Of a stretch of DNA of 64,000 nt, positions 24,530 to 56,695 are shown piece by piece (the first letter of the stretch is position 1; each line of letters starts with the position of its first letter). The notes under the pieces were generated by a model. The model had not been told where the DNA came from. It worked only from the letters and a program-made list of their open reading frames with translations, and did no database searches. This DNA comes from Nannocystis bainbridge (GTDB lineage: Bacteria > Myxococcota_A > Polyangia > Nannocystales > Nannocystaceae): contig NZ_JAQNDL010000003.1 of NCBI RefSeq assembly GCF_028368995.1, positions 2,240,001 through 2,304,000 of the forward strand, given 5' to 3'. The position numbers and the translations under genes were made by a program.

Positions 24530-25831
24530 ATGTTCGGGCGCAAGCAATGGTCCAATTGGTCGGGCGGCGTCACCTGTCGTCCGGGCCAGTTCGTGGTCCC
24601 GAGCACCGTCGAAGCCCTCAGCGACCTGGTCCGAGAGACAGCCGGCGCCAACGGCAAGCTGCGGGTCGTCGGCGCCGGCCACTCCTTCAGCCCGGTCGTC
24701 GCCACCGAGCACACCCTCGTCTCGCTGGCGCGGATCCGCGGCCTCGCCGAGGTCGACCGCGAAGCCGGCGCCGCCACCGTGCTGGCCGGCACCACGATCC
24801 GCGACCTCGGCGGCCTGCTCGGCAAGCACGGCCTCGCGCTCGAGAACCAGGGCGACATCGACAGCCAGGCGATCGCCGGGGCCGTCAGCACCGGCACCCA
24901 CGGCACCGGCATCGCCTTCGGCAGCATCAGCACCCAGGTCCGCGCCCTCACCCTCGTGCTCGCGACCGGCGAGCTGCTGCCTTGCTCGCCGACGCAGGAG
25001 CCCGAGATCTTCAAGGCCGCCCAGGTCGCTCTCGGCAGCCTCGGGGTGCTGGCGCGGGTCCGCCTGCAGTGCGTGCCGAGCTACGTGCTCCGCGACGTCC
25101 GCAAGAACGTCGACCTCGCGCAGTGCCTGGCCGACTTCGAGGACAGCTGCCGGCGCCACCGCCACTTCGAGTTCTGGTGGTTCCCCTACAGCGACCGCGC
25201 CGCCACCAAGGCGCTCGACATCGTCGCCACCCCGAAGCCGCGCTCCGTCGTCAAGCGCGTGCTCGCCGACAAGCTGCTCGAGACCGGCGTGTTCTGGGCC
25301 GCCTCCGAGGCCGTGCGGCTGTTCCCCGGCCTCTCGCGCCCGGTCGCCCGCTTCGCCGCGCGGGCCATCTCCGAGGCCGACCACGCCGACCACAGCCACC
25401 GCGTGTTCCCCAGCCCCCGCGACGTCCGCTTCAACGAGATGGAGTACGCGGTCCCGGTCGAGCGCGGCCCCGACTGCCTGCGCGAGCTCAAGGCGTACAT
25501 CGAGCGCGACCGCGTCAATGTCCACTTCCCCGTCGAGTACCGCGTGGTCGCCGGCGACGACATCTGGCTGAGCCCGTTCTACCGCCGCGACAGCGCCGTG
25601 ATCTCGGTGCACATGTACGCCGGCATGCCGTACGCCGACTACTTCGCCGGCTGCGAGGCGATCTTCCGCAACCACCGCGGCCGCCCGCACTGGGGCAAGC
25701 TCCACGGCCTGACCGCACATGAACTTCAGGACATGTACCCGGAATGGCACCGCTTCCACGCCGTCCGCCGCCGCCTCGACCCCCGCGGCGTGTTCATGAA
25801 CGACCATTTGACGAGGATCTTCGGCGCCTGA
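24530..25831 (+). CDS. FAD-linked oxidase, D-arabinono-1,4-lactone/L-gulonolactone oxidase family
   Basis: WSNWSG, VGAGHSFS, STGTHGTG, FNEMEYAVP, FPVEYR, GRPHWGK. Confidence 0.92.
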   Translation: MFGRKQWSNWSGGVTCRPGQFVVPSTVEALSDLVRETAGANGKLRVVGAGHSFSPVVATEHTLVSLARIRGLAEVDREAGAATVLAGTTIRDLGGLLGKHGLALENQGDIDSQAIAGAVSTGTHGTGIAFGSISTQVRALTLVLATGELLPCSPTQEPEIFKAAQVALGSLGVLARVRLQCVPSYVLRDVRKNVDLAQCLADFEDSCRRHRHFEFWWFPYSDRAATKALDIVATPKPRSVVKRVLADKLLETGVFWAASEAVRLFPGLSRPVARFAARAISEADHADHSHRVFPSPRDVRFNEMEYAVPVERGPDCLRELKAYIERDRVNVHFPVEYRVVAGDDIWLSPFYRRDSAVISVHMYAGMPYADYFAGCEAIFRNHRGRPHWGKLHGLTAHELQDMYPEWHRFHAVRRRLDPRGVFMNDHLTRIFGA

Positions 25832-26062: not shown

Positions 26063-26755
26063 GTGAAGCTCGTCTGGTCGCTCATCGCCGGCCTCGGCGG
26101 CCTGTTCTTCGCGGTCGGCCTCACCCTGCTGATCGTCAACCAGCGGTTCTACGGCAGCGCGCGGCGGACCGACGGCGAGGTCGTCCACCTCCGCTTCAGC
26201 AACAAGGGCAGCGCTGCGCCCGACGTGGCCTACACCGACCACCTGGGCCGCGAGCACCTCCACAGCTCCAACGTCTACTCCAAGCCCGCGTATCGGGTCG
26301 GCGAGCCCGTCACGATCGCCTTCGACCCCGACGACCCCGGCGACGCCGCGATCGACAGCCTCACCCAGCGCTGGCTGTTGCCCGGCATCTTCGGGTGCAT
26401 CGGCCTCGTCCACCTCGGCATCGGCTCGACCTTCCTGCTGCTCCGCTCCCGCCGCAAGCGCGAGATCGCCAGGCTCTTGCGCGAGGGCCAGCGCGTCGAC
26501 GCCCCCATCGTCGAGATTGCCCACAACACCAGCATCCGCGTCAATCGCAGGAGCCCGTGGGTCATCCGCTGCGAGGTCACCTTGCCCGGCGAAGCGACCG
26601 CCCGTCGCTTCGTCAGCCGGCGCTTCTGGAACGACCCTCGCCCGCACCTGCGCGGGCGCAGCCTGCCCGTCTGTTACGACCCCCGCGATCCTTCACGCCA
26701 CGTCGTCGACACCGGCGACCTCGATCCGGGCCGCGCCTTCGAGCGCCGCGGCTGA
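26063..26755 (+). CDS. DUF3592-family membrane protein
   Basis: TM-OB-like-TM layout; YRVGEPVTIAFDPDDP; second module VCYDPRDP. Confidence 0.8.
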   Translation: MKLVWSLIAGLGGLFFAVGLTLLIVNQRFYGSARRTDGEVVHLRFSNKGSAAPDVAYTDHLGREHLHSSNVYSKPAYRVGEPVTIAFDPDDPGDAAIDSLTQRWLLPGIFGCIGLVHLGIGSTFLLLRSRRKREIARLLREGQRVDAPIVEIAHNTSIRVNRRSPWVIRCEVTLPGEATARRFVSRRFWNDPRPHLRGRSLPVCYDPRDPSRHVVDTGDLDPGRAFERRG

Positions 26756-26921
26756 CAGCAGCCACGCGAGCGGACGGCGCTGGCCGCCTCGGCCGGTGCG
26801 ACGCGTCACCCATCCGCCGAGCCACGCGCGGCCTCGACCTCGTGCACGCGCATGCGGCCCGACGCCGCACCTCCCGCCGCCCCGCGTTGACGCCGGCCCG
26901 GGTGCGGCGCACGCTCCCTGC

Positions 26922-28271
26922 GTGTCGACTCGCAGCGCGCTCCCGCCTGGCTCCCGGCGCACCCTCCTGCAGACCTATCGCTACACCCGCGACCCGTACC
27001 GCTTCTTCGTCGAGATGGCCGAGGAGTACGGCGACCCGTTCACCATCCACGCCGTCAACGGCAGCGTCGCCATGACCGGCAATCCTGCCGGCGCCCAGCA
27101 GATCTTCGCCGCCGACCCCGACGCCTTTGTCCCCTTCGGCGCCGAGGTCTCGCGCCCGCTGCTCGGCGACAGCTCGATGCTGCTGCTCTCCGGCGAGCGT
27201 CACCGCAAGGAGCGCAAGCTGCTCATGCCCGCCTTCCACGGCGAACGCATGCGCGCCTACGGCGAAACGATCCGCGCCGCCGCCCACGCCGCCGCCTCGA
27301 CCTGGCTCAAGGGACAGACCTTCGTCTTCCAGGACAGCTCGCAGTGGATCTCGCTCGAGGTCATCATCCGCGCCGTGTTCGGGGTCGTTGACCCGGCCCG
27401 CGTCGAGGCGGTCCGCCAGGCCATCCTCGAGTTCGTCGCCGCCACCGTCCCGAGCTTCATGTTCTTCCCGTTCCTGCAGCGCGATTTCCTCGGCATGGGC
27501 CCGTGGGCGCGGTTTCAGCGGGCTCGCCGGCGGATCGGCTTCCTCATCGCCGCCGAGCTGGCCGCCCGTCGCAGCCGGCCCGAGGAGCTCGGCGACGACA
27601 TCCTGAGCCGCATGCTCGCCGCCCGTCACGACGACGGCAGCGGCATGAGCGACAGCGAGATCCACGACGAGCTCCTCACCCTGTTGTTCGCCGGCCACGA
27701 GACCTCCGGCATCGCCCTCGCCTGGTCGATCTACTGGCTGCACCGCAACCCCGACCGCCTCGAAAAATTGCTCGCCGAGCTCGACACTGCCGGCGAGCGG
27801 CCCGAGCCCGAGGTCGTCGCTCGCCTGCCGTACCTCGAGGCCGTCGTGCACGAGACCTTGCGCCTCTATCCGATCGCCCCGGACGCCCCGCGCATGCTCG
27901 CCCGCCCGCTCGAGCTCCTCGGCTACACCTTGCCCGCCGGCGCTGGCGTGGCCGTCGCCACCGGCCTCCTGCACATCCGCCCCGACCTCTACCCCGAGCC
28001 GCACGCCTTCCGCCCCGAGCGCTTCCTCCACAAGAAATTCAGCCCCTTCGAGTACACCCCGTTCGGCGGCGGTCATCGCCGCTGCCTCGGCGCCGCCTTC
28101 GCCACCTACGAGATGAAGCTCGTGCTCGCCGCGCTGCTGCGAAACTACCGCCTGAAGCTCGCCGAGCCGCGCGAGGTCAAGCCGGGCCGCCGCAACGTCG
28201 TGCTCGGCCCTGCCACTGGCGTGCGCGTCACCTACCTGGGCCCGCGCCGCGCCGGCGACCTGCCCGCCTGA
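26922..28271 (+). CDS. Cytochrome P450 (bacterial CYP110/135-like)
   Basis: AGHETS, ETLR, FRPERF, PFGGGHRRCLG. Confidence 0.95.
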   Translation: MSTRSALPPGSRRTLLQTYRYTRDPYRFFVEMAEEYGDPFTIHAVNGSVAMTGNPAGAQQIFAADPDAFVPFGAEVSRPLLGDSSMLLLSGERHRKERKLLMPAFHGERMRAYGETIRAAAHAAASTWLKGQTFVFQDSSQWISLEVIIRAVFGVVDPARVEAVRQAILEFVAATVPSFMFFPFLQRDFLGMGPWARFQRARRRIGFLIAAELAARRSRPEELGDDILSRMLAARHDDGSGMSDSEIHDELLTLLFAGHETSGIALAWSIYWLHRNPDRLEKLLAELDTAGERPEPEVVARLPYLEAVVHETLRLYPIAPDAPRMLARPLELLGYTLPAGAGVAVATGLLHIRPDLYPEPHAFRPERFLHKKFSPFEYTPFGGGHRRCLGAAFATYEMKLVLAALLRNYRLKLAEPREVKPGRRNVVLGPATGVRVTYLGPRRAGDLPA

Positions 28272-36991: not shown

Positions 36992-38032
36992 TCACAGCCG
37001 CGACGCGTCGTAGCGCGGGCTCGCCAGCGACCACTCGATGTTGCCGCGCTGCCACTCGAGCAGCCCCTGCAGATACGTGTGCGCCTCGTGCCCCTCCGGG
37101 TACGCCGCCCCGGCCTCGCGCACGCTCGCCGCCAGCGCTTGCGCCTCGGCGTTGACCAGCTCCGTCGCCTCGCGGAGGGCCGACTCGAGCGAGCAGCCGC
37201 GCTCGCACATCAGCACGTGGACCAGGTTGTTGGGGTTCTTGTGGCGCAGCACCTCTTTGGGGAACGACACGATGTCGTTGAAGTAGCCGACCGTGCGGCT
37301 CGCCGCCCGGCGGGCTCGCACCATCGCCGGGCTGTCGCGCACTGTCGGCGCCAGGTGCAGCGCCCCCGCCAGCTCGATCAGGTCGAGCGCCGTCAGCACC
37401 CCGCTGTCGTGCTCGCGCTGGCTCAGGTACTCGCGCAGCGGCGGCGTGCGCGACGTGCCCCAGTTGCGCACCGCCGGCAGCACCCCGAGCGACATGTGAT
37501 CGGCGGTCACGCACCACAGCCGATCGAGCCAGGCCCCGCCGATCTGCGCCAGCGCCCCGCGGCGGAACTCGAGCAGCAGGCGGTCGAGCGGCTCGGCCTC
37601 GCCCGTCGGCTGACGCGCTCCTGACAGCAGCGCCAGCGCGTGATCGATCTGTCGCCGCACCCGGCTCTGGTCGTCGCGGCTGCGCAGCTCCTCGTCGTGC
37701 ATGTCGTCGAAGAAGAACAACCAGTTGCACCACGTCGCGCACAGCACCCCGCGCTCGACCGTGGCCGTCGGATACACGTGGCGACCCAGCGAGTTGAAGG
37801 CGTCGAAGCGGGCCCGGTTGCCCGCGTGGACCAGCCCGACCGCCTCTGCCAGCGCCAGCGCCCCGGCCTCGATCTCGTCCGCGCGCGGGTTCTGGCGCCG
37901 CGGCGCCAGGGTCACGAAATCGTCGATCGCCAGGCCGACCGGCTGCGCGCGCACGTCGGGCGCCAGCGGTTCGGGGCGAGAGATCACGAGCACATCGTTC
38001 ATCGCGTCCGATACGGGCGAGAGAGTCGTCAT
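36992..38032 (-). CDS. Class I terpene synthase
   Basis: WLFFFDDMHDE (DDxxD), YLSQR..DSG, NDIVSFPKE (NSE/DTE), NLVHVL, WSLASPRY. Confidence 0.92.
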   Translation of the reverse strand: MTTLSPVSDAMNDVLVISRPEPLAPDVRAQPVGLAIDDFVTLAPRRQNPRADEIEAGALALAEAVGLVHAGNRARFDAFNSLGRHVYPTATVERGVLCATWCNWLFFFDDMHDEELRSRDDQSRVRRQIDHALALLSGARQPTGEAEPLDRLLLEFRRGALAQIGGAWLDRLWCVTADHMSLGVLPAVRNWGTSRTPPLREYLSQREHDSGVLTALDLIELAGALHLAPTVRDSPAMVRARRAASRTVGYFNDIVSFPKEVLRHKNPNNLVHVLMCERGCSLESALREATELVNAEAQALAASVREAGAAYPEGHEAHTYLQGLLEWQRGNIEWSLASPRYDASRL

Positions 38033-38297
38033 GGGGGGGTAGGTCTTGTTGTCCGAGGGTCGCTGAGCCGGCAACTACATCCGCCGTGCTCACCGCGCCG
38101 GAGGCGGGGCGGCGCGCATCATGAGCGGCGCGGGGCGCCCGAATGGATCTCGGCGTCGTGAGGCTGAATTCGGGCGCCGCTCGCCGACTGCGCGTCGGAC
38201 GCCAAGCCGCTTCGCAACCGGCGCACGCGGCGGCGGGTCCGCGGCGCCGCCCGCTGCGGGGCGGCGTGCGTGGCAGCCGGTCGATGCATCTTCGCCG

Positions 38298-39446
38298 CTA
38301 CTTCTTCGCCGCCGCCGCCGTCGTCGTCGGCTTGCGCTGGCTCATCTGCACGATGCAGAACTTGAGCGCGTCGCGGAGCTTGGCGAACACTGCCACGCGC
38401 GCGAGGTCGACCCCGAGCGCGACGATCGTCTGGGCGATGGTCGGATGGATGCCGGTCAAGATGCCCTCGGCGCCGAGCAGACGGATCGCCTGGATCATCC
38501 CGATCAGGTGGCCGGCCGTGCCGGTGTCGACGACCTCGACCCCGGTGAGGTCGAGGATCGCGTAGCGGGCCCGCGTGGTCGCCACCGAAGTCAGCAGGTT
38601 GTCCATGATCTCCGCCGTGCGGACGCTGTCGACCAGGCCGATGATCGGCAGCGTCAGCACCCCGTCCCACACCTCGATGATCGGCGTCGAAAGCTCGCGG
38701 ATCACCTCTTGCTGGCGCTCGATCAGCTCGAGCTTGGTGCGCAGCTCGATCTCGCTGCGGCGCGCCTCGGTCACGTCGAGCGTGATGCCCACCACCGCCG
38801 CGTCGGCGGCGTTCTCTTGCATCGGGATGTACCAGGTCTGCCAGTGCATCCCGTGCACCTCGGCCGGCAGCGCCGAGATCGCCTCGCCCTTCAGGGCCCG
38901 GCGCACGCCGTCGAGGTCACCGCCCTCGCGATAGGCCTCGAAGATGTTCTGGCCGACGAACTGATGCGGCTGCATCCCCGTCGCGCGCACGCCCTTGCCG
39001 TCCTGATACAGGAACGTGCCCTGGCCATCGACCGCCCACAGCGCGATGTCGAGGTGCTCCTTGATCGCCTGCAGCATCGCCGACTCGAGCACCGCGCGGC
39101 GCTCGACGGTGACGCGGGACGTCGCGTCGTGGCCGAACAGCCTCGCCCCCCGCGGCGAGCCGTCCTCACCGCGGTCGACTTGCCACCACGCCTCGAACAG
39201 CAGCGGCTGGTCCCCCGCGCCGCGCAGCTCCCAGACGCGCGATTCCGCGCCGTTTTCGAAGAGGGACGTCCATTTGTCCGCCGCCCCGTGCAGCGGCAGC
39301 AGCTCCTCGAGCTTGCGCCCGAGCGCCGCCTCCTGCGAGGTCTTGAAGGTCTGCTCCGCCCGCCGATTCCAGCCGGACACGCGAAGTGCCGGGTCGACGT
39401 CGATGACGACGAGGGGCGCGTCCTGCAGCAAGGTCCGTTCGTCCAC
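38298..39446 (-). CDS. PAS-PAS-STAS protein (RsbR-like)
   Basis: WNRRAEQTF PAS; IRELSTPIIEVWDGVLTLPIIGLVDS.R, ILDLTGVEVVDT, RLLGAEGILTGI.P. Confidence 0.9.
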   Translation of the reverse strand: MDERTLLQDAPLVVIDVDPALRVSGWNRRAEQTFKTSQEAALGRKLEELLPLHGAADKWTSLFENGAESRVWELRGAGDQPLLFEAWWQVDRGEDGSPRGARLFGHDATSRVTVERRAVLESAMLQAIKEHLDIALWAVDGQGTFLYQDGKGVRATGMQPHQFVGQNIFEAYREGGDLDGVRRALKGEAISALPAEVHGMHWQTWYIPMQENAADAAVVGITLDVTEARRSEIELRTKLELIERQQEVIRELSTPIIEVWDGVLTLPIIGLVDSVRTAEIMDNLLTSVATTRARYAILDLTGVEVVDTGTAGHLIGMIQAIRLLGAEGILTGIHPTIAQTIVALGVDLARVAVFAKLRDALKFCIVQMSQRKPTTTAAAAKK

Positions 39447-39545
39447 GCATCCTTTGTACCGTGTCCGCGGACAGCTGTCCGCATCTTCTCGTGCGGACCG
39501 CACGCGCGATCTTGAACCTGCCCCGGAGCCGCGCGCTATCGCCGA

Positions 39546-40655
39546 TCAGGCTCTGTGAGCGGCGCGGAGGCAGTGTTTGAGGGCGTCGCGCAGCTTGGCG
39601 TGCACCGTGACGTGCGACAGGTCGACGCCGAGCGCGACGATTGTTTGAGCGATCGACGGGTGGATGCCGGTGAGGATCCCTTCCGCCCCGAGCAGCCGGA
39701 GCGCCTGGATCATCTTGATAAGGTGACTTGCAGTGCCGGTATCGACGACCTCGACGCCGGTGAGGTCGAGGATCGCGAAGCGGGCTCGCGTCTGCGTCAC
39801 GGCTTGCAGCAGGCTGTCCATGATCTCGGCCGTGCGCGCCGTGTCGACGAGGCCGACGATCGGCATCGTCAGCACCCCGTCCCACACCTCGATGATCGGC
39901 GTGGCGAGCTCGCGGATCACCTGTTGTTGGCGCTCGATCAGCTCGATCTTGCGGCGCATCTCGAGCTCGACCCGCTTGGCCTCCGTGACGTTGAGCGTCA
40001 CCCCGATCAGCCGCGGCTCGCCTGGCTGCCCGGTCACCGGGATGTAATACGTGTCGAGGAACATCCCGTGGCTCTCCGCACCGTACGTGCGCGCCGGCTC
40101 GCCGGCCAGCGCCCGCTCGATCAACGGGTTGTTGCCGAGGTCCTTGTACATCTCGAGCATGTTGAGGCCGACGAACTGGTGCGGCGCGATCCCGGCGTCG
40201 CGGATCGCCTTGCCGTCCTGGTAGACGAACACCCCGTGCTCGTCGACCGCCCACACCGCGATGTCGAGGTTGTCCTTGATCGCCCTCAGCATCGTCGTCT
40301 CGAGCGCCGCGGTCCGCTCGGCCGTCACGCGGGCGCCGACGTCGTGGCCGTAGATGCGCACCCCGGGCGGGCGGCCCTCGCCGTCGCCGAGCGTCTGCGT
40401 CCACGCCTCGATGGACCAGCTCGCGTCGCCGCGGCGGACCGTCAGCACCCGCGGCGCCGCGTCGCTGTCCGCCAGCGACTCGCCCCAGCTCGCGCCGACC
40501 AGCGGCAGCAGCTCGGCCAGGCCGCGGCCGACGGCCTCCGATGGACCTGTCCCGAAGACCAGATGAGCGCGGCGGTTCCAGGCGGTGACGACGAGCCCGG
40601 CGTCCGCCTCGATCACGATCAGGGGGGCGCCCTCCAAACTGCTGGTATCGCTCAC
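39546..40655 (-). CDS. PAS-PAS-STAS protein (RsbR-like), tandem paralog
   Basis: Same architecture; IRELATPIIEVWDGVLTMPIVGLVDTAR. Confidence 0.9.
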   Translation of the reverse strand: MSDTSSLEGAPLIVIEADAGLVVTAWNRRAHLVFGTGPSEAVGRGLAELLPLVGASWGESLADSDAAPRVLTVRRGDASWSIEAWTQTLGDGEGRPPGVRIYGHDVGARVTAERTAALETTMLRAIKDNLDIAVWAVDEHGVFVYQDGKAIRDAGIAPHQFVGLNMLEMYKDLGNNPLIERALAGEPARTYGAESHGMFLDTYYIPVTGQPGEPRLIGVTLNVTEAKRVELEMRRKIELIERQQQVIRELATPIIEVWDGVLTMPIVGLVDTARTAEIMDSLLQAVTQTRARFAILDLTGVEVVDTGTASHLIKMIQALRLLGAEGILTGIHPSIAQTIVALGVDLSHVTVHAKLRDALKHCLRAAHRA

Positions 40656-48609: not shown

Positions 48610-49746
48610 TCACTTCCGCGACCCGGCCATCGCGCGGATGCAGTGCGCGAGCGCCTCGCGGAGCGTCGCGCGGACGGTCAGCCCTGTCGTCTCGAGGCCG
48701 AGGTCCACGATCGTCTGGGCGATGTTCGGGTGGATGCCGGTGACCACGCTCTCGGAGCCGAGCAGGCGGACTGCGCCGACCAGGTCGAGGAGGTGGCCCG
48801 CGGTGCCGGTGTCGACCTCCTCGACGCCCGTGAGGTCGAGGATGGCGAAGCGGGCGCGGGTCTTGGTCACCGCCTGCAGCAGGTTGTCCATCAGCTCGGA
48901 CGCGCGGTTGCTGTCGATCGCGCCGATGATCGGCACAGTCAGCACCCGGTCCCACACCTCGATGATCGGCGTCGAAAGCTGCCGGATCATCTGTTGTTGC
49001 TGCTCGATCTGCAGCAGCTTCTCCCGCAGCGCCTTCTCGCCCTCGCGCTGCTCCGTCACGTTGAGCGACAGCGCCACGATCAGCTCGATCGCCCCGTCGT
49101 CGCCGCGCACCGGGATCATCCAATTTTCGAAGCTCGCCCCGTGCACCTCGGTCGAGGTGTGTTGCAGCGCCCCGTCCAGGGCGGCGTCGAGCGGCTCCGG
49201 CTCGAGGTTCTTGTAGAGCTCGCGGATGTTGCGCCCGACCAGGGCGTGCTGGGGCATGCCGATGCTCTCGAGCCCCTTGCCCCGGTGGTATGTACATAGC
49301 CCGTCGTGCTGCATCGTCCACACGATGATGTTCATGTTCTCGATGATCGCCCGCAGCATCGCCCCCTCGAGGCGGAGCGTCGTGTCGCGGGTGAACCGCT
49401 CGCTGATGTCCTGGCCGTAGCAGGCGGCGGAGACCACCGCGCCGGCGGCGTCGCGCTCGAGCTGGCAGGTCCATTCGCAATGGACCTGAACCCCGTCCTT
49501 GCGCGTGTGCGTGGCCGTCTGCGGGCCGTCCTCGGCGAGGCTGGCCCAGAAGTCGCCCTCGGTCGGCAGCAGCTGCTCGATCGCGGCCCCGAGCGCCTCG
49601 GCGGCCGGCACCGCGAACACCCGGGCGGCGGCGCCGTTCCACACAGTGATCCGCCGCTGGGCGTCGAGCTCGACGGCGATGAACGGCGCACCACGCAGAA
49701 GTCGGGCCTCCCGCGCCTCGGCGGCGGGATCGGAGGAGCTTGCCAT
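48610..49746 (-). CDS. PAS-PAS-STAS protein (RsbR-like), third paralog
   Basis: WNGAAARVF, RKDG..V.CEW, IRQLSTPIIEVWD, ILDLTGVEEVDT. Confidence 0.9.
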   Translation of the reverse strand: MASSSDPAAEAREARLLRGAPFIAVELDAQRRITVWNGAAARVFAVPAAEALGAAIEQLLPTEGDFWASLAEDGPQTATHTRKDGVQVHCEWTCQLERDAAGAVVSAACYGQDISERFTRDTTLRLEGAMLRAIIENMNIIVWTMQHDGLCTYHRGKGLESIGMPQHALVGRNIRELYKNLEPEPLDAALDGALQHTSTEVHGASFENWMIPVRGDDGAIELIVALSLNVTEQREGEKALREKLLQIEQQQQMIRQLSTPIIEVWDRVLTVPIIGAIDSNRASELMDNLLQAVTKTRARFAILDLTGVEEVDTGTAGHLLDLVGAVRLLGSESVVTGIHPNIAQTIVDLGLETTGLTVRATLREALAHCIRAMAGSRK

Positions 49747-49997
49747 TTCATGAGTCAAACACACGCGCGCGCCAACTGTCCACGCGCAAACCATGTGCGG
49801 ACGCCGTCCCGCGCGCCGAGCGAGCGGCCAGATCCGCGCGTCCTGGCGCGAGTGCGGGGTGCAATCATACGACCTGGAATGCGCGCACCGCCCGCCGCCT
49901 ATGTACATTCCCCCATCGCCCGCCGCCTGACGGTCTAATATAAAGAGCGCGCGGTCCGGGGACCGCGCGCTCACGATATCGCCGAAGTCGGCTTCGC

Positions 49998-51549: not shown

Positions 51550-53109
51550 TCAGCCCTCCTTCGCGGCGGCGGCGGCGTCCGCCGGCTTGTCCGTGGCTGC
51601 GGGCTTCTTCGGCTTCGGCGCCGGCTTGGCCCCCGCGTCGGCCCCGGCGGCGTCCGGCTTGGCGGCGGCCGGCTTCTTCGCGGCTGTCCCTTCGGACTTG
51701 ACCGAAGCGCCAGGTCCCTTCGGACCTGTCCCTTCGGGCGGGCCCGCGGCCGGCGCGGCCGGCTTCGAAAGGATCTCCGCGTGCGGCTTGACCAGCCACT
51801 GGTTCGCCACCTCGCGCACCCGCTGCGGCGTGACCGCGCGCAGCCGCTGCAGGTAGGTGTTGGCGTAGCCGGGGTCGCGGGCGTAGTGGTTGAAGTACTG
51901 CAGCCGCTCGACGCGGCCCATCACGTCCTCGAGGCCCCACACGAACGCCGACTCGGTGCCGATGACGACGCGCTTGAGCTCGGCGTCGCTGACCGGCTCG
52001 CGGAGGACCCGCTCGAGCTCGCGGCGGATCGTCAGCTCGGCCTTGACCGGGTCCTGGCCCGGCTTGAGGTCGACGATCACGTGGAACGTGCCGGAGTGCC
52101 CGGCGCCGCCCTGGTAGGCCGACACCGACTGGGCGCTCTTGTCCTCGAGCACCAGCGCCTTGTAGAGGCGACCCCAGCCGGGCGAGCCGAGCACGTCGGC
52201 CAGCACCTCGAGCTCGATGTCACCGCCGCCGAGGCGGGGCGGGCTGTGCCACGCGTAGTGGATGCGGTACAGGCGGGCGAACGGGTCGTCGAGCTCGCGG
52301 CGGACCGTCTGCGTCAGCGCCGGCGCGGCGACCTTCGGGTGGGCCGGCACCGGCAGCGTCGGGAAGCTGCCGAACCACTTCTGGACCAGCGCCTTGGCCT
52401 GCTCCGGCTCGAAGTCGCCGGCGATCGTCAGGGTCGCGTTGCTCGGCACGTACCACTTGCGGAAGAAGCCCTGCACGTCGGCGACGCTGGCGGCCTCGAG
52501 GTCCTCGTGGCGACCGATCGTCAGATAGCGGTACGGGTGGCCTTCGGGGTACAGCGCCTCGGCGACGGCGAACCGCTCGCGGCCGTAGGGCACGTTGTCG
52601 TAGCGCTGGCGCCGCTCGTTGCGGACCACGTCGCGCTGGTTGGCCAGGCTCTTCTCGTCGAGCAGGTCGAGCATGTAGCCCATGCGATCCGACTCGAGCC
52701 ACAGCGCCGTCTCGAGCTGGTGGCTGGGCACCACCTCGAAGTAATTGGTGCGATCCGAATTGGTGGTACCGTTGATTCCGGTGCCGCCGATCTCCTGCAG
52801 GATCTTGAAGTGCACGTCGTTGCCGATGTGCTTGGCGCCCTGGAACATCATGTGTTCGAACAGGTGGGCAAAGCCGCTCTTGCCGGGCGTCTCGTCGCCG
52901 CTGCCGACGTGGTACCAGAGATTGGCGACCACCAGCGGCGCAGCGGAGTCGCGGTGCAAGATCACCTCGAGGCCGTTGGGCAGGACGTAGCGTTCATAGG
53001 GGATGTCGACCCCTGGCGAATCCGCGGCGGGCTTCGCAGGCGCCGCCTGGACGGGGGCCGCAGCCGCAAGAAGCAGCGCGAGCGGCAAGAGCAGGTGCCG
53101 TGTGGCCAT
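51550..53109 (-). CDS. M16B zinc peptidase, catalytic subunit
   Basis: LPNGL, GFAHLFEHMMF (HxxEH), LESDRM, VVRNERR, HPY. Confidence 0.93.
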   Translation of the reverse strand: MATRHLLLPLALLLAAAAPVQAAPAKPAADSPGVDIPYERYVLPNGLEVILHRDSAAPLVVANLWYHVGSGDETPGKSGFAHLFEHMMFQGAKHIGNDVHFKILQEIGGTGINGTTNSDRTNYFEVVPSHQLETALWLESDRMGYMLDLLDEKSLANQRDVVRNERRQRYDNVPYGRERFAVAEALYPEGHPYRYLTIGRHEDLEAASVADVQGFFRKWYVPSNATLTIAGDFEPEQAKALVQKWFGSFPTLPVPAHPKVAAPALTQTVRRELDDPFARLYRIHYAWHSPPRLGGGDIELEVLADVLGSPGWGRLYKALVLEDKSAQSVSAYQGGAGHSGTFHVIVDLKPGQDPVKAELTIRRELERVLREPVSDAELKRVVIGTESAFVWGLEDVMGRVERLQYFNHYARDPGYANTYLQRLRAVTPQRVREVANQWLVKPHAEILSKPAAPAAGPPEGTGPKGPGASVKSEGTAAKKPAAAKPDAAGADAGAKPAPKPKKPAATDKPADAAAAAKEG

Positions 53110-53342
53110 TTTTTCTCCTCATAAGCCTTTTCGCGCATCGCCCGGCCGACCGCAAGAGCAAACGCGGCTCACGGGCGGCGCGGCCGCGGCGACCTTCCTC
53201 GCGCCGGGCCGGCGAAACCACCGTGACGCCGGCGCTGCGGCAGCGGCCGATCTCGTGCCAGGCGCGGCGCCTCGCCAATCGTACGTTGTTACGCTCGCGG
53301 GTCGGACTCGGGCCGCCGGTCCGCGCGTAGTGGCTTTCCGAC

Positions 53343-53921
53343 ATGCGCCGTCGTCCCTTGCTCGCCGCAGCCTGCAGCTTCTTGGTCCCGACCCGCGCGC
53401 TGGCGCGGCCGCCCGCGGTCGACGTCGCGGCCAGCAACGCCGAGCTGTTCGCGCGCCTTCGCGCCCCCGGCGCCCCGCTGCGGGACTGGCAGTGGATCGT
53501 CGTGCATCACACCGCGGCCGAGTGGGCGACGCTCGAGGGCATCGACCGCTACCACCGCAAGCGCTTCGGCGACCCGCTCGGCGCCGAGTATCACTTCGTG
53601 ATCCACAACGGCAAGAAGCGGCCCGCGGGGCTCGTCGAGGCCGCGCGCTGGCGCTACCAGGAGCCCGCCGCCCACCTCTTCAAGCCCGAGAACGCCCCCG
53701 CCTCGATCGCCGTGTGCCTGATCGGCAACTTCGAGGAGCGGCCGCTGCCCGCGCCCATGCTCGGCGCCCTCGTCGACCTCACCGTCGCCCTCATGCGCGA
53801 CTGCTCCATCCCCGCAGAGCGCGTCAGCACCCACCGCGTCGTCGACGACAAGCTGACCCAGTGCCCTGGCAAGCAGTTCCCGCGGGCCGAGTATTTGCGG
53901 CGGATCGGCGCAGGGACATGA
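53343..53921 (+). CDS. N-acetylmuramoyl-L-alanine amidase (Amidase_2/PGRP-like)
   Basis: IVVHHTA, YHFVI, AVCLIGNF, HR.V....T.CPG. Confidence 0.88.
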   Translation: MRRRPLLAAACSFLVPTRALARPPAVDVAASNAELFARLRAPGAPLRDWQWIVVHHTAAEWATLEGIDRYHRKRFGDPLGAEYHFVIHNGKKRPAGLVEAARWRYQEPAAHLFKPENAPASIAVCLIGNFEERPLPAPMLGALVDLTVALMRDCSIPAERVSTHRVVDDKLTQCPGKQFPRAEYLRRIGAGT

Positions 53922-53958
53922 CCCTTCGGACAGGTCACCGTCGAGCCGCGTTCGCCCC

Positions 53959-55368
53959 GTGATACAGTCCGCGGCGATGCTCGGATCGCTCCGCACCGCC
54001 CTCGTCCGCGCCACCGATCGCGCCGCCATTCGTATGACCGGCGGGGTGCGGCGGCCGGGCGAGCCGCCGATCGTGCGCGCGCGGCTGCCCTTCCTCGGCC
54101 ACGCGCTGGCGATGGGGCGCGACCTCACCGCCCTCCTGCGCGCGTGTCAGCGCCAGCACGGCGATGTCTTCACCCTGCTGGTCGCGGGTCAGCGCATGCA
54201 CTTCGTGCTCGACCCGCTGAGCTTCCCGCTGGTGCTCAAGGCGCAGGACAACCTGACCTTCCACGAGATCGGCCAGGAGATCGGCACACGCGCGTTCGGC
54301 TACACCTCGCCGCCGCCCGGCCGCGATTACGACGAGCTCGAGAGCTACTACGGCGAGCACCTCAAGAACGCCGCGCTCGGCCCGCTGACCGCGCGCATGG
54401 AGGAGCGGCTGCGGATCGCCTTCGACCGCTTCACCGGCGACGACTGGCGCGAGGAGGGGCTGTTCGACTTCAGCGCCCGGGTGATCTTCGCCGCCGGCAT
54501 GGAGACCCTTTACGGCGAGGGCATCGCCGACGACGCCGCCGTCCGCGACTTCCAGCGCATCGACAAGTGGTTCCCGCTGCTGGCTGCCGGCGCGCCCGCG
54601 GCCGCGTTCCCCGGCCTCCTGCGCGCGCGTGGACGGCTGCTCGTGCGCGTCGATCGCATGCGCCCCGACGCCAGCCCCTTCATCCGCGCCCGCGACCTCT
54701 TGTTGGGAAAGATCACCACCCCGCGCAATCGCCGGCACCTGCAGGCCGCGATGGTCTGGGCCTCGCAGGCCAACACCTTGCCGGCGGCATTCTGGGCTCT
54801 GGCCCATCTGCTCACCGATCCGCCCGGCCGCGCCGCCGTGGTCGCCGAGGTCGAGCAGCGCGGCTTCTCCGACCTCAAGCGCCTGCCCCAATTGTTCAGC
54901 AGCATCTGCGAGACGCTGCGGCTGTGCAGCGAATCCTTGACGATCCGGCTGGTCCACCGCGACTGCGAGCTGACTCTGGCCGACGGCAGCAGCATCACCC
55001 TGCGCGCCGGCGACCGGGTCGCGCTGTGCCCGCAAGTGGCCCACCGCGATCCGGAGATCTTCGCCGACCCGGAGCGCTTCCAATTCGACCGTTTCCTGTC
55101 CGACACCGGCGGCCCGCGGCAATTTTTGAAGGGTGGCCAGCGTGTACCGATCCCCCTGATGCCCTACGGCGGCGGCGTCAGCATGTGTCCTGGCCGCTTC
55201 CTCGCCAACAACGAGGTCATGCAATTCGCCGGGCTCGCGCTCACGCAACTCGACATCGAGCTGCTCGAGCAGGAGTTGCCCCCGGTCGACAAGACCCGCG
55301 CCGGCCTCGGCGTGCTGTCCCCGACCCGCGATGTGCGCTGCCGGATCCGCCGCCGCCCGCGCGCCTGA
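53959..55368 (+). CDS. Cytochrome P450 resembling eukaryotic CYP7/CYP8 clan
   Basis: RRPGEPP, WASQANTLPAAFW (I-helix), ETLR, DPEIFADPERFQFDRF, MPYGGGVSMCPGRF, RAGLGVL.P; start could be 53977. Confidence 0.9.
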   Translation: MIQSAAMLGSLRTALVRATDRAAIRMTGGVRRPGEPPIVRARLPFLGHALAMGRDLTALLRACQRQHGDVFTLLVAGQRMHFVLDPLSFPLVLKAQDNLTFHEIGQEIGTRAFGYTSPPPGRDYDELESYYGEHLKNAALGPLTARMEERLRIAFDRFTGDDWREEGLFDFSARVIFAAGMETLYGEGIADDAAVRDFQRIDKWFPLLAAGAPAAAFPGLLRARGRLLVRVDRMRPDASPFIRARDLLLGKITTPRNRRHLQAAMVWASQANTLPAAFWALAHLLTDPPGRAAVVAEVEQRGFSDLKRLPQLFSSICETLRLCSESLTIRLVHRDCELTLADGSSITLRAGDRVALCPQVAHRDPEIFADPERFQFDRFLSDTGGPRQFLKGGQRVPIPLMPYGGGVSMCPGRFLANNEVMQFAGLALTQLDIELLEQELPPVDKTRAGLGVLSPTRDVRCRIRRRPRA

Positions 55369-55571
55369 TCCTCATTTCTTGACCTCGATGGTTCGCGGCT
55401 TCATTTCTGCTGGCACGACCCGACCCGAGTTTTTTAAATCTGTCCTCAAGGACATCTCATGACAATCGCGCCGACTGAACGTCAGCGACCCTGACCGGGG
55501 CGAGGGGTTATTCGCCGGGCCAGGGTCTCGACAGGACTTTCAAGGCGGACGCTCTCGATCTGCCACGGCGA

Positions 55572-56165
55572 TCACGTGCCGGGCTTGGCGGCCAGGGCCG
55601 ACGGCGGCGGCTCAGTCTTGACGCGGGCGACCTGGGCGCAGTTGAGCTCGCAGGTGGCCTGGTCGGTGGCGCGCACGCTCTTGTGGTTGTGACACTGCTT
55701 GACGCACGTCTCGAGCTGCGTGAACACCTTGTCGGGCAGCGGCGACGAAGTCTGCGCTGCCATCGTCTTGCACGAGCTGTTGCACGCGGCGTCGTCGCTG
55801 CCCGAGCAGCGGCCGAGGCACTCGGTGGCCTGGGCGATCTCGTCGCGGTCTTCGGCGGTCACGGCGCCGCGGGCCTCTGCGCCGTAAGCCGTCTCGCAGT
55901 TGAGGCTGCAGGTCTTTTGGTCGGTCTTCGCATTCACGTCGTCGCACGAGGTAAGACACTCGGAGAGGCTGGAGAACGTGCGGCCGCTGCTGCTCGCCGC
56001 GGCGAAGTCGGGCGCCACGACCACCGGCGTGGTCGCCAGCTTGCGTTCGGGCGCGGCCCGATCCTTGGCCGTGGGGGCGGCCACGACCTCCTTCTTGAGG
56101 AACTCCTGCTGGTCGCAACCGACGGCCAGCGCGAGGACGATGAGGAGCTTGGTCGCGTGATTCAT
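55572..56165 (-). CDS. Helical lipoprotein with six CxxxC motifs
   Basis: Lipobox AVGC; CLTSC, CSLNC, CLGRC, CNSSC, CVKQC, CELNC. Confidence 0.8.
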   Translation of the reverse strand: MNHATKLLIVLALAVGCDQQEFLKKEVVAAPTAKDRAAPERKLATTPVVVAPDFAAASSSGRTFSSLSECLTSCDDVNAKTDQKTCSLNCETAYGAEARGAVTAEDRDEIAQATECLGRCSGSDDAACNSSCKTMAAQTSSPLPDKVFTQLETCVKQCHNHKSVRATDQATCELNCAQVARVKTEPPPSALAAKPGT

Positions 56166-56695
56166 GGCGTTCGTTCCTTTCGAAGCCCTCCATCGACGGG
56201 GGGTGCTCAAACCCTGTGCGAGGCGGCGACTGTCGACCTGTGGCGGCCCTGCAACCCCACCACGACCACGAATCGCGCCCTGCCGATTGATCACACCAGC
56301 GAGCCGCGCAAATTGCGCATCGACGAATATCCCACTCTCTCGTCAATCACAGCAGATCGTACTCCCTGCGCCCGCGCCCGGCCGAGCCCGCCGCCCGCAT
56401 CGCATCCATGTCTCCCGGCACATGGCCTTTTCACCAGGTCACGACCAACTGCGACTGCCCTCAATCGCCGAGCGACCTGGACCGTGCGCGGGTCCTTCTG
56501 CGATCGCGCAATGACTCCAGGAGTCGACGTCGAACCGCGACCGGCAGCGCCTGATTCGATCGTGCATGCGCCGCCCGATACGCCGCCTCGGCGGCCACGC
56601 CGACGACGAGCCCGGCGCAGACTCGACGATCTCTCCGCCGTGCGGAGGGCTTCAGCCTTCGCCGCTGCGCCGACGCCCCGGAGCCGCGATTCGCC

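What the first reader, a model, noticed from the sequence alone, without database searches (positions are those of the whole stretch)
53959..55368. Bacterial P450 that looks like animal cholesterol 7-alpha-hydroxylase (CYP7 clan)
The I-helix reads WASQANTLPAAFW instead of the usual AGxET. From memory, vertebrate CYP7A1 has WASQANTIPATFW, with the Asn typical of CYP7/8. The similarity runs end to end: RRPGEPP..LPFLG.AL..G, HGDVFT...AG..MHF..DPLS, ETLRL.S.SL.IR, P...H.DPEIF.DP..F.FDRFL, F.KGG, MP.G.G.S.CPGRF.A.NE..QF and PP.D..RAGLG.L.P. The N-terminal membrane anchor is absent. Nannocystis-group myxobacteria are known sterol producers. Inference: a bacterial sterol/oxysterol hydroxylase, relevant to the origin or horizontal transfer of the CYP7 clan. 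Its codon usage looks native.
Basis: partly seen in the sequence, partly recalled or inferred. Interest (0 to 1): 0.8.

Follow-up and report, generated by a model that had tools for sequence, protein, structure and literature searches.

The report
Bacterial CYP7-type sterol P450 in Nannocystis
A sterol-making soil bacterium carries an intact, anchor-less relative of the animal bile-acid enzymes CYP7/CYP8; it is a good candidate for the unidentified enzyme that oxidises carbon 7 of this genus's unusual sterols.

Summary
ORF 53959-55368(+) encodes a complete P450, probably starting at the ATG at 53977. Its I-helix reads WASQANTLPAAFW. Its best solved relatives, aligned end to end, are human CYP7A1 (E 7e-70), CYP8B1 and prostacyclin synthase. 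CYP51 follows only at 1e-14.

It keeps the clan's Trp/Asn "low ceiling" and the Trp-Asp-Arg triad. It has no membrane anchor.

It is not a CYP7A1 orthologue. In a careful tree the animal CYP7/8 sequences form their own clade. All 19 labelled bacterial sequences, mostly Myxococcota, fall in a separate 36-row clade (support 81/94), and the backbone is unresolved. The I-helix motif occurs across the whole family, protists included.

The genome is a Nannocystis (85-86% identity to four Nannocystis genomes, three of them named species, with conserved synteny). It encodes OSC, CYP51, ERG24-type reductases and EBP. Published Nannocystis "nannosterols" carry a C-7 ketone whose P450 is unidentified (PMC10152446).

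Best reading, about 0.4: a soluble sterol 7-hydroxylase that tailors the cell's own sterols. Function is inferred, not shown. The gene sits in no sterol cluster, and a sister bacterial subclade occurs in genomes without OSC.

I found no paper describing bacterial clan-7 P450s.

The parts
53959..55368 (+). ORF of the clan-7 P450 (469 codons from the GTG). The probable CDS is 53977-55368, 463 aa from the ATG at Met7.
   Evidence: ORF; Pfam p450, 2.1e-30; CYP7A1, 7e-70; 463-aa form; start conserved in L007 and L009.
54757..54795 (+). I-helix motif WASQANTLPAAFW (residues 267-279). Trp267 is the 'low-ceiling' Trp. Asn272 replaces the usual acid. Thr273 is retained.
   Evidence: W267 and N272 are invariant in 20 bacterial homologues. 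They align with CYP8B1 W281 and N286, by my count on the alignment; their roles are described in PMC9463588.
54562..54564 (+). Asp202 in the F-helix, the middle member of the Trp-Asp-Arg triad.
   Evidence: Invariant in alignment A1. Aligns with CYP8B1 D210 in the alignment (my count). The triad is described in PMC9463588.
54910..54921 (+). ExxR motif (E318-T-L-R321) of the K-helix.
   Evidence: E318 and R321 are invariant in A1.
55165..55200 (+). Haem-binding loop YGGGVSMCPGRF with the thiolate ligand Cys410.
   Evidence: C410 is invariant. The loop is of the monooxygenase type (CPGRF, as in CYP7A1/8B1), not the prostacyclin-synthase type (C[LV]GR).
55297..55299 (+). Arg447, the surface member of the Trp-Asp-Arg triad.
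   Evidence: Invariant in A1. Aligns with CYP8B1 R479 in the alignment (my count).
53343..53921 (+). Upstream same-strand gene: an Amidase_2 (N-acetylmuramoyl-L-alanine amidase) protein of 192 aa, ending 37 bases before the ORF. This is context only; no functional link is evident.
   Evidence: Pfam, 7.8e-12. The gene order amidase-P450 is conserved in 5 of 5 close Nannocystis loci: L006-L009 and L019.

Best explanation
The gene encodes a soluble, catalytically intact P450 monooxygenase of the CYP7/CYP8/CYP39 group (clan 7). It belongs to a bacterial, mainly Myxococcota, branch of that group. In this Nannocystis it most likely hydroxylates the ring system of the cell's own cholesterol-pathway sterols. 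C-7 is the favoured position. The 7-hydroxysterol would then be oxidised by a dehydrogenase to the 7-ketone seen in nannosterols. Electrons would come from a ferredoxin or flavodoxin system encoded elsewhere, not from a eukaryote-type P450 reductase.

Shown: family membership, intact catalytic motifs, lack of an anchor, presence of a sterol pathway in the genome, and vertical inheritance within the genus.

Inferred: the substrate, the position attacked, the link to nannosterols and the redox partner.
For: 1. Family. The best solved relatives, aligned end to end, are CYP7A1 (7e-70), CYP8B1 (5e-64) and PGIS (5e-58), with CYP51 at 1e-14. The AF2 model (pLDDT 89.6) matches CYP7A1 3sn5 best (TM 0.86, E 1.6e-34); CYP51 follows at 1e-20.

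2. Clan signatures are kept and are invariant in 20 bacterial homologues: Trp267, Asn272, Asp202, Arg447, ExxR and Cys410 (roles from PMC9463588 passages). The haem loop is of the monooxygenase type (CPGRF), not the PGIS type.

3. All characterised clan members except PGIS are sterol 7-alpha or 12-alpha hydroxylases. This is established knowledge; for CYP7A1 and CYP8B1 it is stated in PMC9463588.

4. The genome has OSC (human lanosterol synthase 1.6e-116), CYP51 (8.6e-123), two ERG4/ERG24 reductases, two EBP genes, one beside CYP51, and a squalene-epoxidase-like gene.

5. Nannosterols A and B from Nannocystis have a C-7 ketone. Their authors propose a P450 7-hydroxylation followed by a dehydrogenase, state that the tailoring enzymes are unidentified, and say the genes are scattered (PMC10152446, section 6 part 1 and passages).

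6. Homologues occur in the proven sterol producers Enhygromyxa salina and Plesiocystis pacifica.

7. Co-occurrence with OSC. All 15 of 15 relatives carrying the gene also have OSC, against 45 of 61 overall. In the subclade holding the window's protein, 15 of 16 named non-Nannocystis genomes have OSC.

8. The gene is single-copy in this genome. It is syntenic in four Nannocystis genomes (three named species and strain RBIL2) at 85-86% identity.
Against: - No sterol gene, ferredoxin or dehydrogenase lies next to it, here or in the 12 other loci whose ORFs I listed. Pfam was run only on 10 neighbouring ORFs from 4 of those loci (L030, L035, L037, L041).
- The genome gives 34 PF00067 matches, roughly 30 P450 genes. 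There are therefore many candidates for the four or more nannosterol oxidations.
- Position cannot be read from homology. The clan contains both C-7 and C-12 hydroxylases and one isomerase.
- A sister bacterial subclade (Bradymonadia and Polyangiales MAGs) sits in genomes with no OSC hit: 0 of 4 named loci. The 4 distant Myxococcota genomes that carry a homologue also gave 0 of 4 OSC hits; I did not place those in a tree.
- Only 14 of 36 same-family genomes carry the gene, although 34 of 36 have OSC.
- I do not know whether this strain makes nannosterols.
- In the passages I read, 7-oxygenated sterols are not reported for E. salina. Only 25-hydroxycholesterol and unspecified oxysterols are mentioned.
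Confidence: 0.4

Rival explanations
1. It hydroxylates the cell's own sterols, but at a position other than C-7. Candidates are C-12, as for CYP8B1, or one of the other nannosterol positions (C-15, C-18, C-24/25).
For: The family and genome evidence is the same as for the best explanation. The clan includes a 12-alpha hydroxylase (PMC9463588). Nannosterols need hydroxylations at C-15, C-18 and C-24/25 whose enzymes are also unknown (PMC10152446). In the tree the protein is not nearer to the CYP7A/7B clade than to the CYP8 clade.
Against: Three of the four characterised sterol-acting clan members attack C-7: CYP7A1, CYP7B1 and CYP39A1 (recalled knowledge). C-12 oxygenation is not a feature of the nannosterols described. 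The published authors point to CYP106/109-type enzymes for C-15.
Confidence: 0.25
2. It acts on lipids the cell does not make itself. These could be sterols from prey or the environment (detoxification, signalling or catabolism), or non-sterol lipids such as oxylipins, where it might work as a PGIS- or CYP74-like rearranging enzyme.
For: Homologues exist in genomes without an OSC hit: 6 of 24 named-locus genomes and 4 of 4 distant Myxococcota. Myxococcota and Bradymonadia are predators (abstracts listed). No CPR is found and no partner gene is adjacent. An enzyme like PGIS needs no partner (PMC9463588). A metagenomic relative is fused to an MMPL/RND lipid-transporter domain (P0157).
Against: The OSC-less genomes placed in a tree (L033, L047, L048, L049) belong to a different subclade from the window's protein; one OSC-less genome (L043) does sit in the window's subclade. 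The haem loop and the retained I-helix Thr are of the monooxygenase type, unlike PGIS. The window's subclade tracks OSC almost perfectly, 15 of 16.
Confidence: 0.2
3. It is a recent capture of an animal CYP7A1 gene, or eukaryotic contamination of the assembly.
For: The top PDB hit is human CYP7A1. The I-helix is identical to that of some fish CYP7A1 sequences.
Against: The animal sequences form one clade, on one side of a branch in 100% of 200 bootstrap trees, and none of the labelled bacterial rows is in it. Identity to fish CYP7A1 is only 35-39%. The gene lies on a 3.03-Mb contig with native GC3 and conserved synteny in four Nannocystis genomes (three named species and strain RBIL2). It has no introns and no anchor.
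Confidence: 0.01

Closest known systems
Human CYP7A1, cholesterol 7-alpha-hydroxylase (PDB 3sn5, 3v8d, 3dax)
   Same: End-to-end alignment (E 7e-70). Best fold match (TM 0.86). The I-helix is the same apart from 2 of 13 residues. The CPGRF haem loop, ExxR and the Trp/Asn ceiling are shared.
   Different: Identity is about 34-39%. It is outside the animal CYP7/8 clade. It has no N-terminal membrane anchor. No CPR-type reductase is found in the genome (genome 90.5% complete). It lacks the roughly 20-residue insert after the I-helix that is visible as a gap in the alignment.
Human CYP8B1 (sterol 12-alpha-hydroxylase, 7lyx) and CYP8A1 (prostacyclin synthase, 2iag, 3b98)
   Same: Strong end-to-end similarity (5e-64 and 5e-58). 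Trp267, Asp202 and Arg447 align with the W281-D210-R479 triad, and Asn272 with N286.
   Different: The I-helix reads ANT rather than GNT or GNM. The haem loop is unlike the C[LV]GR loop of PGIS. It lies in a different clade.
Protist clan-7-like P450s (Bigelowiella natans, Salpingoeca urceolata, Luapelamoeba hula, Rhizophlyctis rosea, Balamuthia mandrillaris)
   Same: Same family and same I-helix signature. The Balamuthia sequence even falls inside the bacterial clade, as sister of a Myxococcota MAG (87/90).
   Different: They are about 500-540 aa long with hydrophobic N-termini. None has a function named in the records I saw, other than automatic labels.
Bacterial CYP51 (for example Methylococcus capsulatus, 6mcw) and this genome's own CYP51
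   Same: This is the precedent for a eukaryote-type sterol P450 living as a soluble enzyme in sterol-producing bacteria (PMC7947880, passages). Both genes are present in this genome.
   Different: It is a different P450 family (1e-14) with different chemistry, 14-alpha-demethylation. CYP51 is a core pathway enzyme, whereas the clan-7 gene is accessory (14 of 36 same-family genomes).
Myxobacterial steroid hydroxylases CYP260A1 and CYP260B1 of Sorangium cellulosum
   Same: They are soluble myxobacterial P450s that hydroxylate steroids. They are cited in the reference list of bioRxiv 10.1101/2024.11.01.621555.
   Different: They are ordinary bacterial CYP families, not clan 7. This is my recollection; I did not compare them here.

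Membership tests
P450 clan 7 (CYP7/CYP8/CYP39 group) | Full-length similarity to CYP7/CYP8 proteins, well above that to any other P450 family | tested here: met
   CYP7A1 7e-70, CYP8B1 5e-64, PGIS 5e-58; the next family, CYP51, scores 1.5e-14. One search gives the same order by fold.
P450 clan 7 (CYP7/CYP8/CYP39 group) | I-helix 'low-ceiling' Trp, and an Asn five residues later protruding into the active site in place of the usual acid | tested here: met
   W267 and N272. They align with CYP8B1 W281 and N286 (my count) and are invariant in A1. The feature is described in PMC9463588.
P450 clan 7 (CYP7/CYP8/CYP39 group) | Network of the I-helix Trp, an F-helix Asp/Asn and a surface Arg | tested here: met
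   By alignment only: D202 and R447 align with D210 and R479 and are invariant in A1. I did not measure contacts in the model.
P450 clan 7 (CYP7/CYP8/CYP39 group) | Branches with clan members when rooted on CYP51 | tested here: met
   it lies inside the 75-row ingroup (97/97), in a bacterial clade (81/94) that joins an unresolved polytomy with the animal clade, the protist clades and three single unlabelled rows.
P450 clan 7 (CYP7/CYP8/CYP39 group) | Microsomal form: N-terminal membrane anchor and dependence on a CPR reductase. This is typical of the animal members rather than defining for the clan. | tested here: not met
   No hydrophobic N-terminus. No PF00667 match in the genome, which is 90.5% complete.
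CYP7A1 orthologue (cholesterol 7-alpha-hydroxylase proper) | Falls within the CYP7A clade | tested here: not met
   the CYP7A1 sequences (fish, lamprey) lie inside an animal-only clade (90/99). The window's protein is in the bacterial clade.
CYP7A1 orthologue (cholesterol 7-alpha-hydroxylase proper) | At least about 40% identity, the usual threshold for one CYP family (nomenclature rule, recalled) | tested here: inconclusive
   35-39% by BLASTP to fish CYP7A1, 43% over phmmer-matched stretches and 34% in the structural alignment to human CYP7A1. The value is borderline and mostly below the threshold.
CYP7A1 orthologue (cholesterol 7-alpha-hydroxylase proper) | Catalyses 7-alpha-hydroxylation of cholesterol | not testable with these tools
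   Needs an enzyme assay.
Prostacyclin-synthase-type isomerase (CYP8A1) | Atypical haem loop (WG.G.N.C[LV]GR) and an I-helix GN[MA]G without the conserved Thr | tested here: not met
   the window has YGGGVSMCPGRF and ANT, like the monooxygenases. The PGIS-clade rows read WGAGHNQCLGRG / WGSGTNVCVGRF and GNMG / GNAG.

The most novel reading that the evidence does not exclude
Ring hydroxylation of sterols of the CYP7/8 type (oxysterol and bile-acid chemistry) is not an animal invention. A deep, diverse Myxococcota branch of the clan is as old as the eukaryotic branches. On this reading the clan was exchanged between Myxococcota and stem eukaryotes together with the rest of the sterol pathway, possibly from bacterium to eukaryote. 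The Nannocystis enzyme would then be a living bacterial sterol 7-hydroxylase that makes oxysterol-like metabolites.
Probability: 0.15. Interest if true: 0.85.

Novelty: new member of a known kind. Interest (0 to 1): 0.6.

Why it matters
- It gives a concrete, testable gene for an orphan step in bacterial sterol chemistry, the C-7 oxidation of nannosterols. The published work left the tailoring enzymes unidentified (PMC10152446).
- It shows that the P450 group behind animal bile-acid and oxysterol synthesis has a sizeable bacterial branch, concentrated in the very phylum proposed as a source of eukaryotic sterol synthesis (abstract of bioRxiv 10.1101/2024.11.01.621555). That adds a downstream, non-core sterol enzyme to the debate.
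- A naturally soluble CYP7-type enzyme could also serve as a tractable model or biocatalyst for regioselective sterol hydroxylation.

Tried and rejected
1. Conserved gene neighbourhood. I clustered ORFs from the window and 29 loci. The only neighbour family shared beyond the genus, in 9 loci, is a Ser/Thr kinase with TPR repeats. These are abundant in myxobacteria, so I treat it as coincidence. A FemAB/GNAT gene lies downstream in 2 loci only. I found no ferredoxin, reductase, dehydrogenase or sterol gene among the neighbours examined.

2. The quick tree put all protists and bacteria in one clade (SH-aLRT 100) with the animals paraphyletic at the root. The careful tree did not reproduce this, so I rely on the careful tree. 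The root sits on one very long CYP51 branch and is not trustworthy.

3. My first idea that the genome has only a few P450s, from 8 tblastn hits, was wrong. Pfam finds 34 matches.

4. CPR-type reductase: PF00667 gave no match in the genome.

5. Promoter and terminator scan of 52900-55800: 0 and 0 sites. This is uninformative at 70% G+C.

6. The downstream 240-aa ORF 55572-56294(-) has no Pfam match and no PDB match.

7. Expression: no RNA holder was listed.

8. Literature. Searches found no paper that names a bacterial or myxobacterial CYP7-type P450. One search found no open copy of the CYP7A1 structure paper, and a DOI look-up failed. I therefore did not compare substrate-contact residues of CYP7A1. 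The library lacks most subscription journals, so this is not proof that nothing is in print.

9. The supplements of PMC10152446 (Tables S2 and S3: producer strains, terpene clusters) are closed. They could bear on the link between gene and product.

10. Tools not used: complex prediction, the protein atlas, and the RNA tools.
Full report
**What is there**

The window is 70.4% G+C. ORF 53959-55368(+) is open for 469 codons from a GTG and has the codon-position G+C pattern of a real gene (0.71/0.51/0.90).

The more likely start is the ATG at 53977. The database copy of this protein has 463 aa (P0003). In two of four Nannocystis loci the frame can only open at the equivalent codon (L007, L009).

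Pfam sees only "p450", and only over the C-terminal half (2.1e-30). NCBIfam gives nothing above its cut-offs.

**Checking the observation**

A phmmer search of all PDB chains puts three proteins far ahead of everything else:
- human CYP7A1, 7.3e-70, query 30-463 against chain 9-482
- CYP8B1, 4.8e-64
- prostacyclin synthase, about 5e-58

The next family, CYP51, scores 1.5e-14. It confirms that the human I-helix reads WASQANTIPATFW against WASQANTLPAAFW here.

An AlphaFold2 model built from 20 bacterial homologues (pLDDT 89.6, pTM 0.89) gives the same ranking by fold. CYP7A1 3sn5 matches with TM 0.86 and E 1.6e-34, followed by PGIS and CYP8B1, and CYP51 only at about 1e-20.

The region before the PGEPP hinge is not hydrophobic. 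Its best 18-residue Kyte-Doolittle mean is 1.0, against 2.3-3.1 in fish and shark CYP7A1/8B. The membrane anchor is therefore missing.

**Catalytic and family signatures**

The following are all present and invariant across 20 bacterial homologues sharing 40-79% identity (alignment A1):
- ExxR (E318, R321)
- the haem loop YGGGVSMCPGRF with Cys410
- the I-helix Trp267 and Asn272
- Asp202 and Arg447

By my count on the alignment, W267, N272, D202 and R447 align with CYP8B1 W281, N286, D210 and R479. In the CYP8B1 structure paper these are the "low-ceiling" Trp, the Asn that protrudes into the active site, and a Trp-Asp-Arg network. That paper describes the network as shared by CYP7A1, CYP8A1, CYP7B1 and CYP39A1 (PMC9463588, passages).

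The haem loop and the retained Thr273 resemble the monooxygenases, not prostacyclin synthase.

**The I-helix is a family mark, not a CYP7A1 mark**

In 175 aligned family members, the pattern W-A-x-x-x-N-T-x-P-A-x-F-W recurs, with variations, in bacterial, protist and animal sequences alike. The exact string of the window also occurs in Bigelowiella natans and in some fish CYP7A1 sequences.

**How large the family is and who has it**

A full HMMER scan of 1.84 billion cluster representatives found 241 clusters at E <= 1e-30.

Named members include:
- fish and lamprey CYP7A1, frog CYP7B1, shark CYP8B1, rodent PGIS and a Ciona CYP7B1-like protein
- an annelid tandem P450
- protists and a chytrid: Bigelowiella, Salpingoeca, Luapelamoeba, Balamuthia, Rhizophlyctis

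In bacterial genomes I found 29 loci:
- Nannocystis exedens, N. pusilla, N. punicea and strain RBIL2, at 85-86% identity
- Enhygromyxa salina SWB005 (45%) and Plesiocystis pacifica SIR-1 (42%)
- other Nannocystaceae, and Polyangia, Polyangiales, Bradymonadia and Myxococcales MAGs
- two MAGs labelled Alphaproteobacteria and Proteobacteria

In sampled genomes the gene is patchy:
- 4 of 400 other Myxococcota at E <= 1e-40
- 14 of 36 genomes of the same family
- 6 of 10 of the same genus; the four without it are 64-88% complete

**Phylogeny**

A FastTree overview of 175 rows and a careful IQ-TREE analysis of 77 rows (LG+C20+F+G4 PMSF, UFBoot/SH-aLRT), rooted on this genome's own CYP51, agree on the main points.

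- The animal CYP7A, CYP7B, CYP8A, CYP8B and Ciona sequences form one clade in the careful tree (90/99). The animal label is one side of a branch in 100% of 200 bootstrap trees.
- All 19 labelled bacterial rows fall in one 36-row clade (81/94).
- That clade also contains Balamuthia, as sister of a Myxococcota MAG (87/90), and an unlabelled long-branched pair (P0167, P0099).
- The backbone is a polytomy of 12 lineages: the animal clade, the bacterial clade, seven clades of protist or unlabelled sequences, and three single unlabelled rows.

The protein is therefore a clan member but not a CYP7A1 orthologue. CYP7A1 tops the hit lists because its branch is short. The direction of any exchange between bacteria and eukaryotes cannot be read from this tree, because the root rests on one very long outgroup branch.

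The earlier quick tree suggested a protist-plus-bacteria clade. The careful search did not reproduce it.

**The host and its sterol pathway**

The window lies on a 3.03-Mb contig of an 11.05-Mb genome that is 90.5% complete. The genome encodes:
- an oxidosqualene cyclase, best PDB match human lanosterol synthase at 1.6e-116; squalene-hopene cyclase reaches only 3.7e-57
- CYP51 (8.6e-123)
- two ERG4/ERG24-family reductases
- two EBP-family genes, one directly beside CYP51
- a squalene-epoxidase-like gene

These genes are scattered, which is how the nannosterol paper describes N. pusilla.

The clan-7 gene is single-copy; the next tblastn hit scores 2.5e-11. The gene order amidase, P450, hypothetical, disulfide reductase, UDG-like is conserved in the four close Nannocystis genomes (three named species and strain RBIL2). 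There the P450 is 85-86% identical while its neighbours are 58-95% identical. GC3 is 0.917. The gene is native to the genus.

**Link to chemistry**

Nannosterols A and B from Nannocystis have a cholestanol core with a C-7 ketone, C-15 and C-18 hydroxyls and a C-24/25 diol. Their authors:
- report them only from Nannocystineae
- propose a cascade of P450 hydroxylations, including a 7-hydroxyl that a dehydrogenase then oxidises
- call the tailoring enzymes unidentified
- could not do genetics in the producers

(PMC10152446: abstract, section 6 part 1 and passages.)

E. salina makes cholesterol, 25-hydroxycholesterol and further unspecified oxysterols (PMC10202945, passages). Neither paper mentions a CYP7-type gene in the text I read. 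A clan whose characterised sterol enzymes attack C-7 or C-12 is the obvious candidate for the C-7 oxidation.

**Co-occurrence with sterol synthesis**

Among 61 relatives, 45 have an OSC-level hit at E <= 1e-60, which is stronger than the score between this OSC and a hopene cyclase. All 15 genomes that carry the P450 are among them.

Among 24 genomes reached through named loci, 18 have OSC, with every best hit at or below 4.6e-122. The six without OSC are L033, L043, L047, L048, L049 and L053.

Mapped on the trees:
- The subclade holding Nannocystis, Enhygromyxa and Plesiocystis is OSC-positive in 15 of 16 non-Nannocystis genomes. L043 is the exception.
- The sister subclade (Bradymonadia, Polyangiales STL-MYX24 and the "Proteobacteria" MAG) is OSC-positive in 0 of 4.
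- Four distant Myxococcota genomes with homologues also gave 0 of 4 OSC hits. I did not place these in a tree.

These counts overlap between samples, and related genomes are not independent. The pattern fits a sterol role in the window's subclade and a different or exogenous substrate in the sister subclade.

**What argues against the favoured reading**

- Nothing in the neighbourhood helps. Upstream lies a cell-wall amidase. Beyond it, on the other strand, lies a pair of M16 peptidases.
- Downstream lie an unannotatable 240-aa ORF and a class I disulfide reductase.
- No ferredoxin gene fits in the flanking gaps, and no CPR-type reductase was found in the genome.
- The genome has about 30 P450 genes (34 Pfam matches), so there are many other candidates for the nannosterol oxidations.
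- The position attacked cannot be inferred within a clan that holds both 7- and 12-hydroxylases and an isomerase.
- I could not compare substrate-contact residues with CYP7A1, because its structure paper was not available.

**Verdict**

Clan-7 membership is well supported, at roughly 0.97. A sterol ring hydroxylase acting on the cell's own sterols has a probability of about 0.65 over all positions, and C-7 hydroxylation feeding 7-keto nannosterols about 0.4.

I found no paper describing bacterial clan-7 P450s in seven searches. Automatic annotation already labels some relatives "cholesterol 7alpha-monooxygenase", and the library is incomplete.

I rate it a new member of a known kind, of solid specialist interest.

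Noticed in passing
window 26517-28271 (+), with 24530-25831 (+) and 36992-38074 (-): The window holds a second, ordinary P450 (Pfam 1.5e-72). Nearby are an ALO/FAD_binding_4 oxidase and, about 9 kb further on, a family-2 terpene synthase. This may be terpenoid tailoring chemistry unrelated to the finding.
   Followed up: partly
G000:C2:2941076-2944533 (-), outside the window (loci L002, L005): A squalene-epoxidase-like gene (PF08491, 9.5e-33) sits directly beside a second, atypical 644-aa cyclase-like gene (SQHop_cyclase_C, 2.1e-23). That gene lacks the OSC VSDCTAE motif seen in the C1 cyclase.
   Followed up: partly
G000:C2:232500-236381 (+), outside the window (locus L004): A P450 is followed by a 549-aa protein with a weak squalene-cyclase C-terminal domain match (1.2e-6). 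This could be a small terpenoid cluster.
   Followed up: no
protein P0157 (metagenome contig of 7.9 kb): A 1228-aa protein fuses an MMPL/RND transporter domain to a C-terminal clan-7-type P450. This hints at coupled lipid transport and oxidation.
   Followed up: partly
protein P0135 (Balamuthia mandrillaris, two assemblies, contigs of 467 kb and 63 kb): A free-living amoeba carries a clan-7 P450, auto-named sterol 12-alpha-hydroxylase. It branches inside the bacterial clade next to a Myxococcota MAG (87/90). This could reflect a transfer from bacterium to amoeba.
   Followed up: partly
G000:C1:644761-646726 (-), locus L054: An EBP-family (sterol 8,7-isomerase-like) gene lies immediately downstream of CYP51. 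It is one of the few sterol genes that are linked in this genome.
   Followed up: partly
loci L035, L041, L044 (Enhygromyxa, Plesiocystis, Nannocystaceae ST9): In this subclade the region before the hinge is hydrophobic (Kyte-Doolittle 1.6-2.2), unlike in Nannocystis (1.0). Some bacterial members may therefore be membrane-anchored. Their start codons were not verified.
   Followed up: no
window 38298-40655 (-) and 48610-49974 (-): Three PAS-STAS domain proteins lie within 12 kb, two of them adjacent. They look like anti-sigma-antagonist-type signalling paralogues.
   Followed up: no
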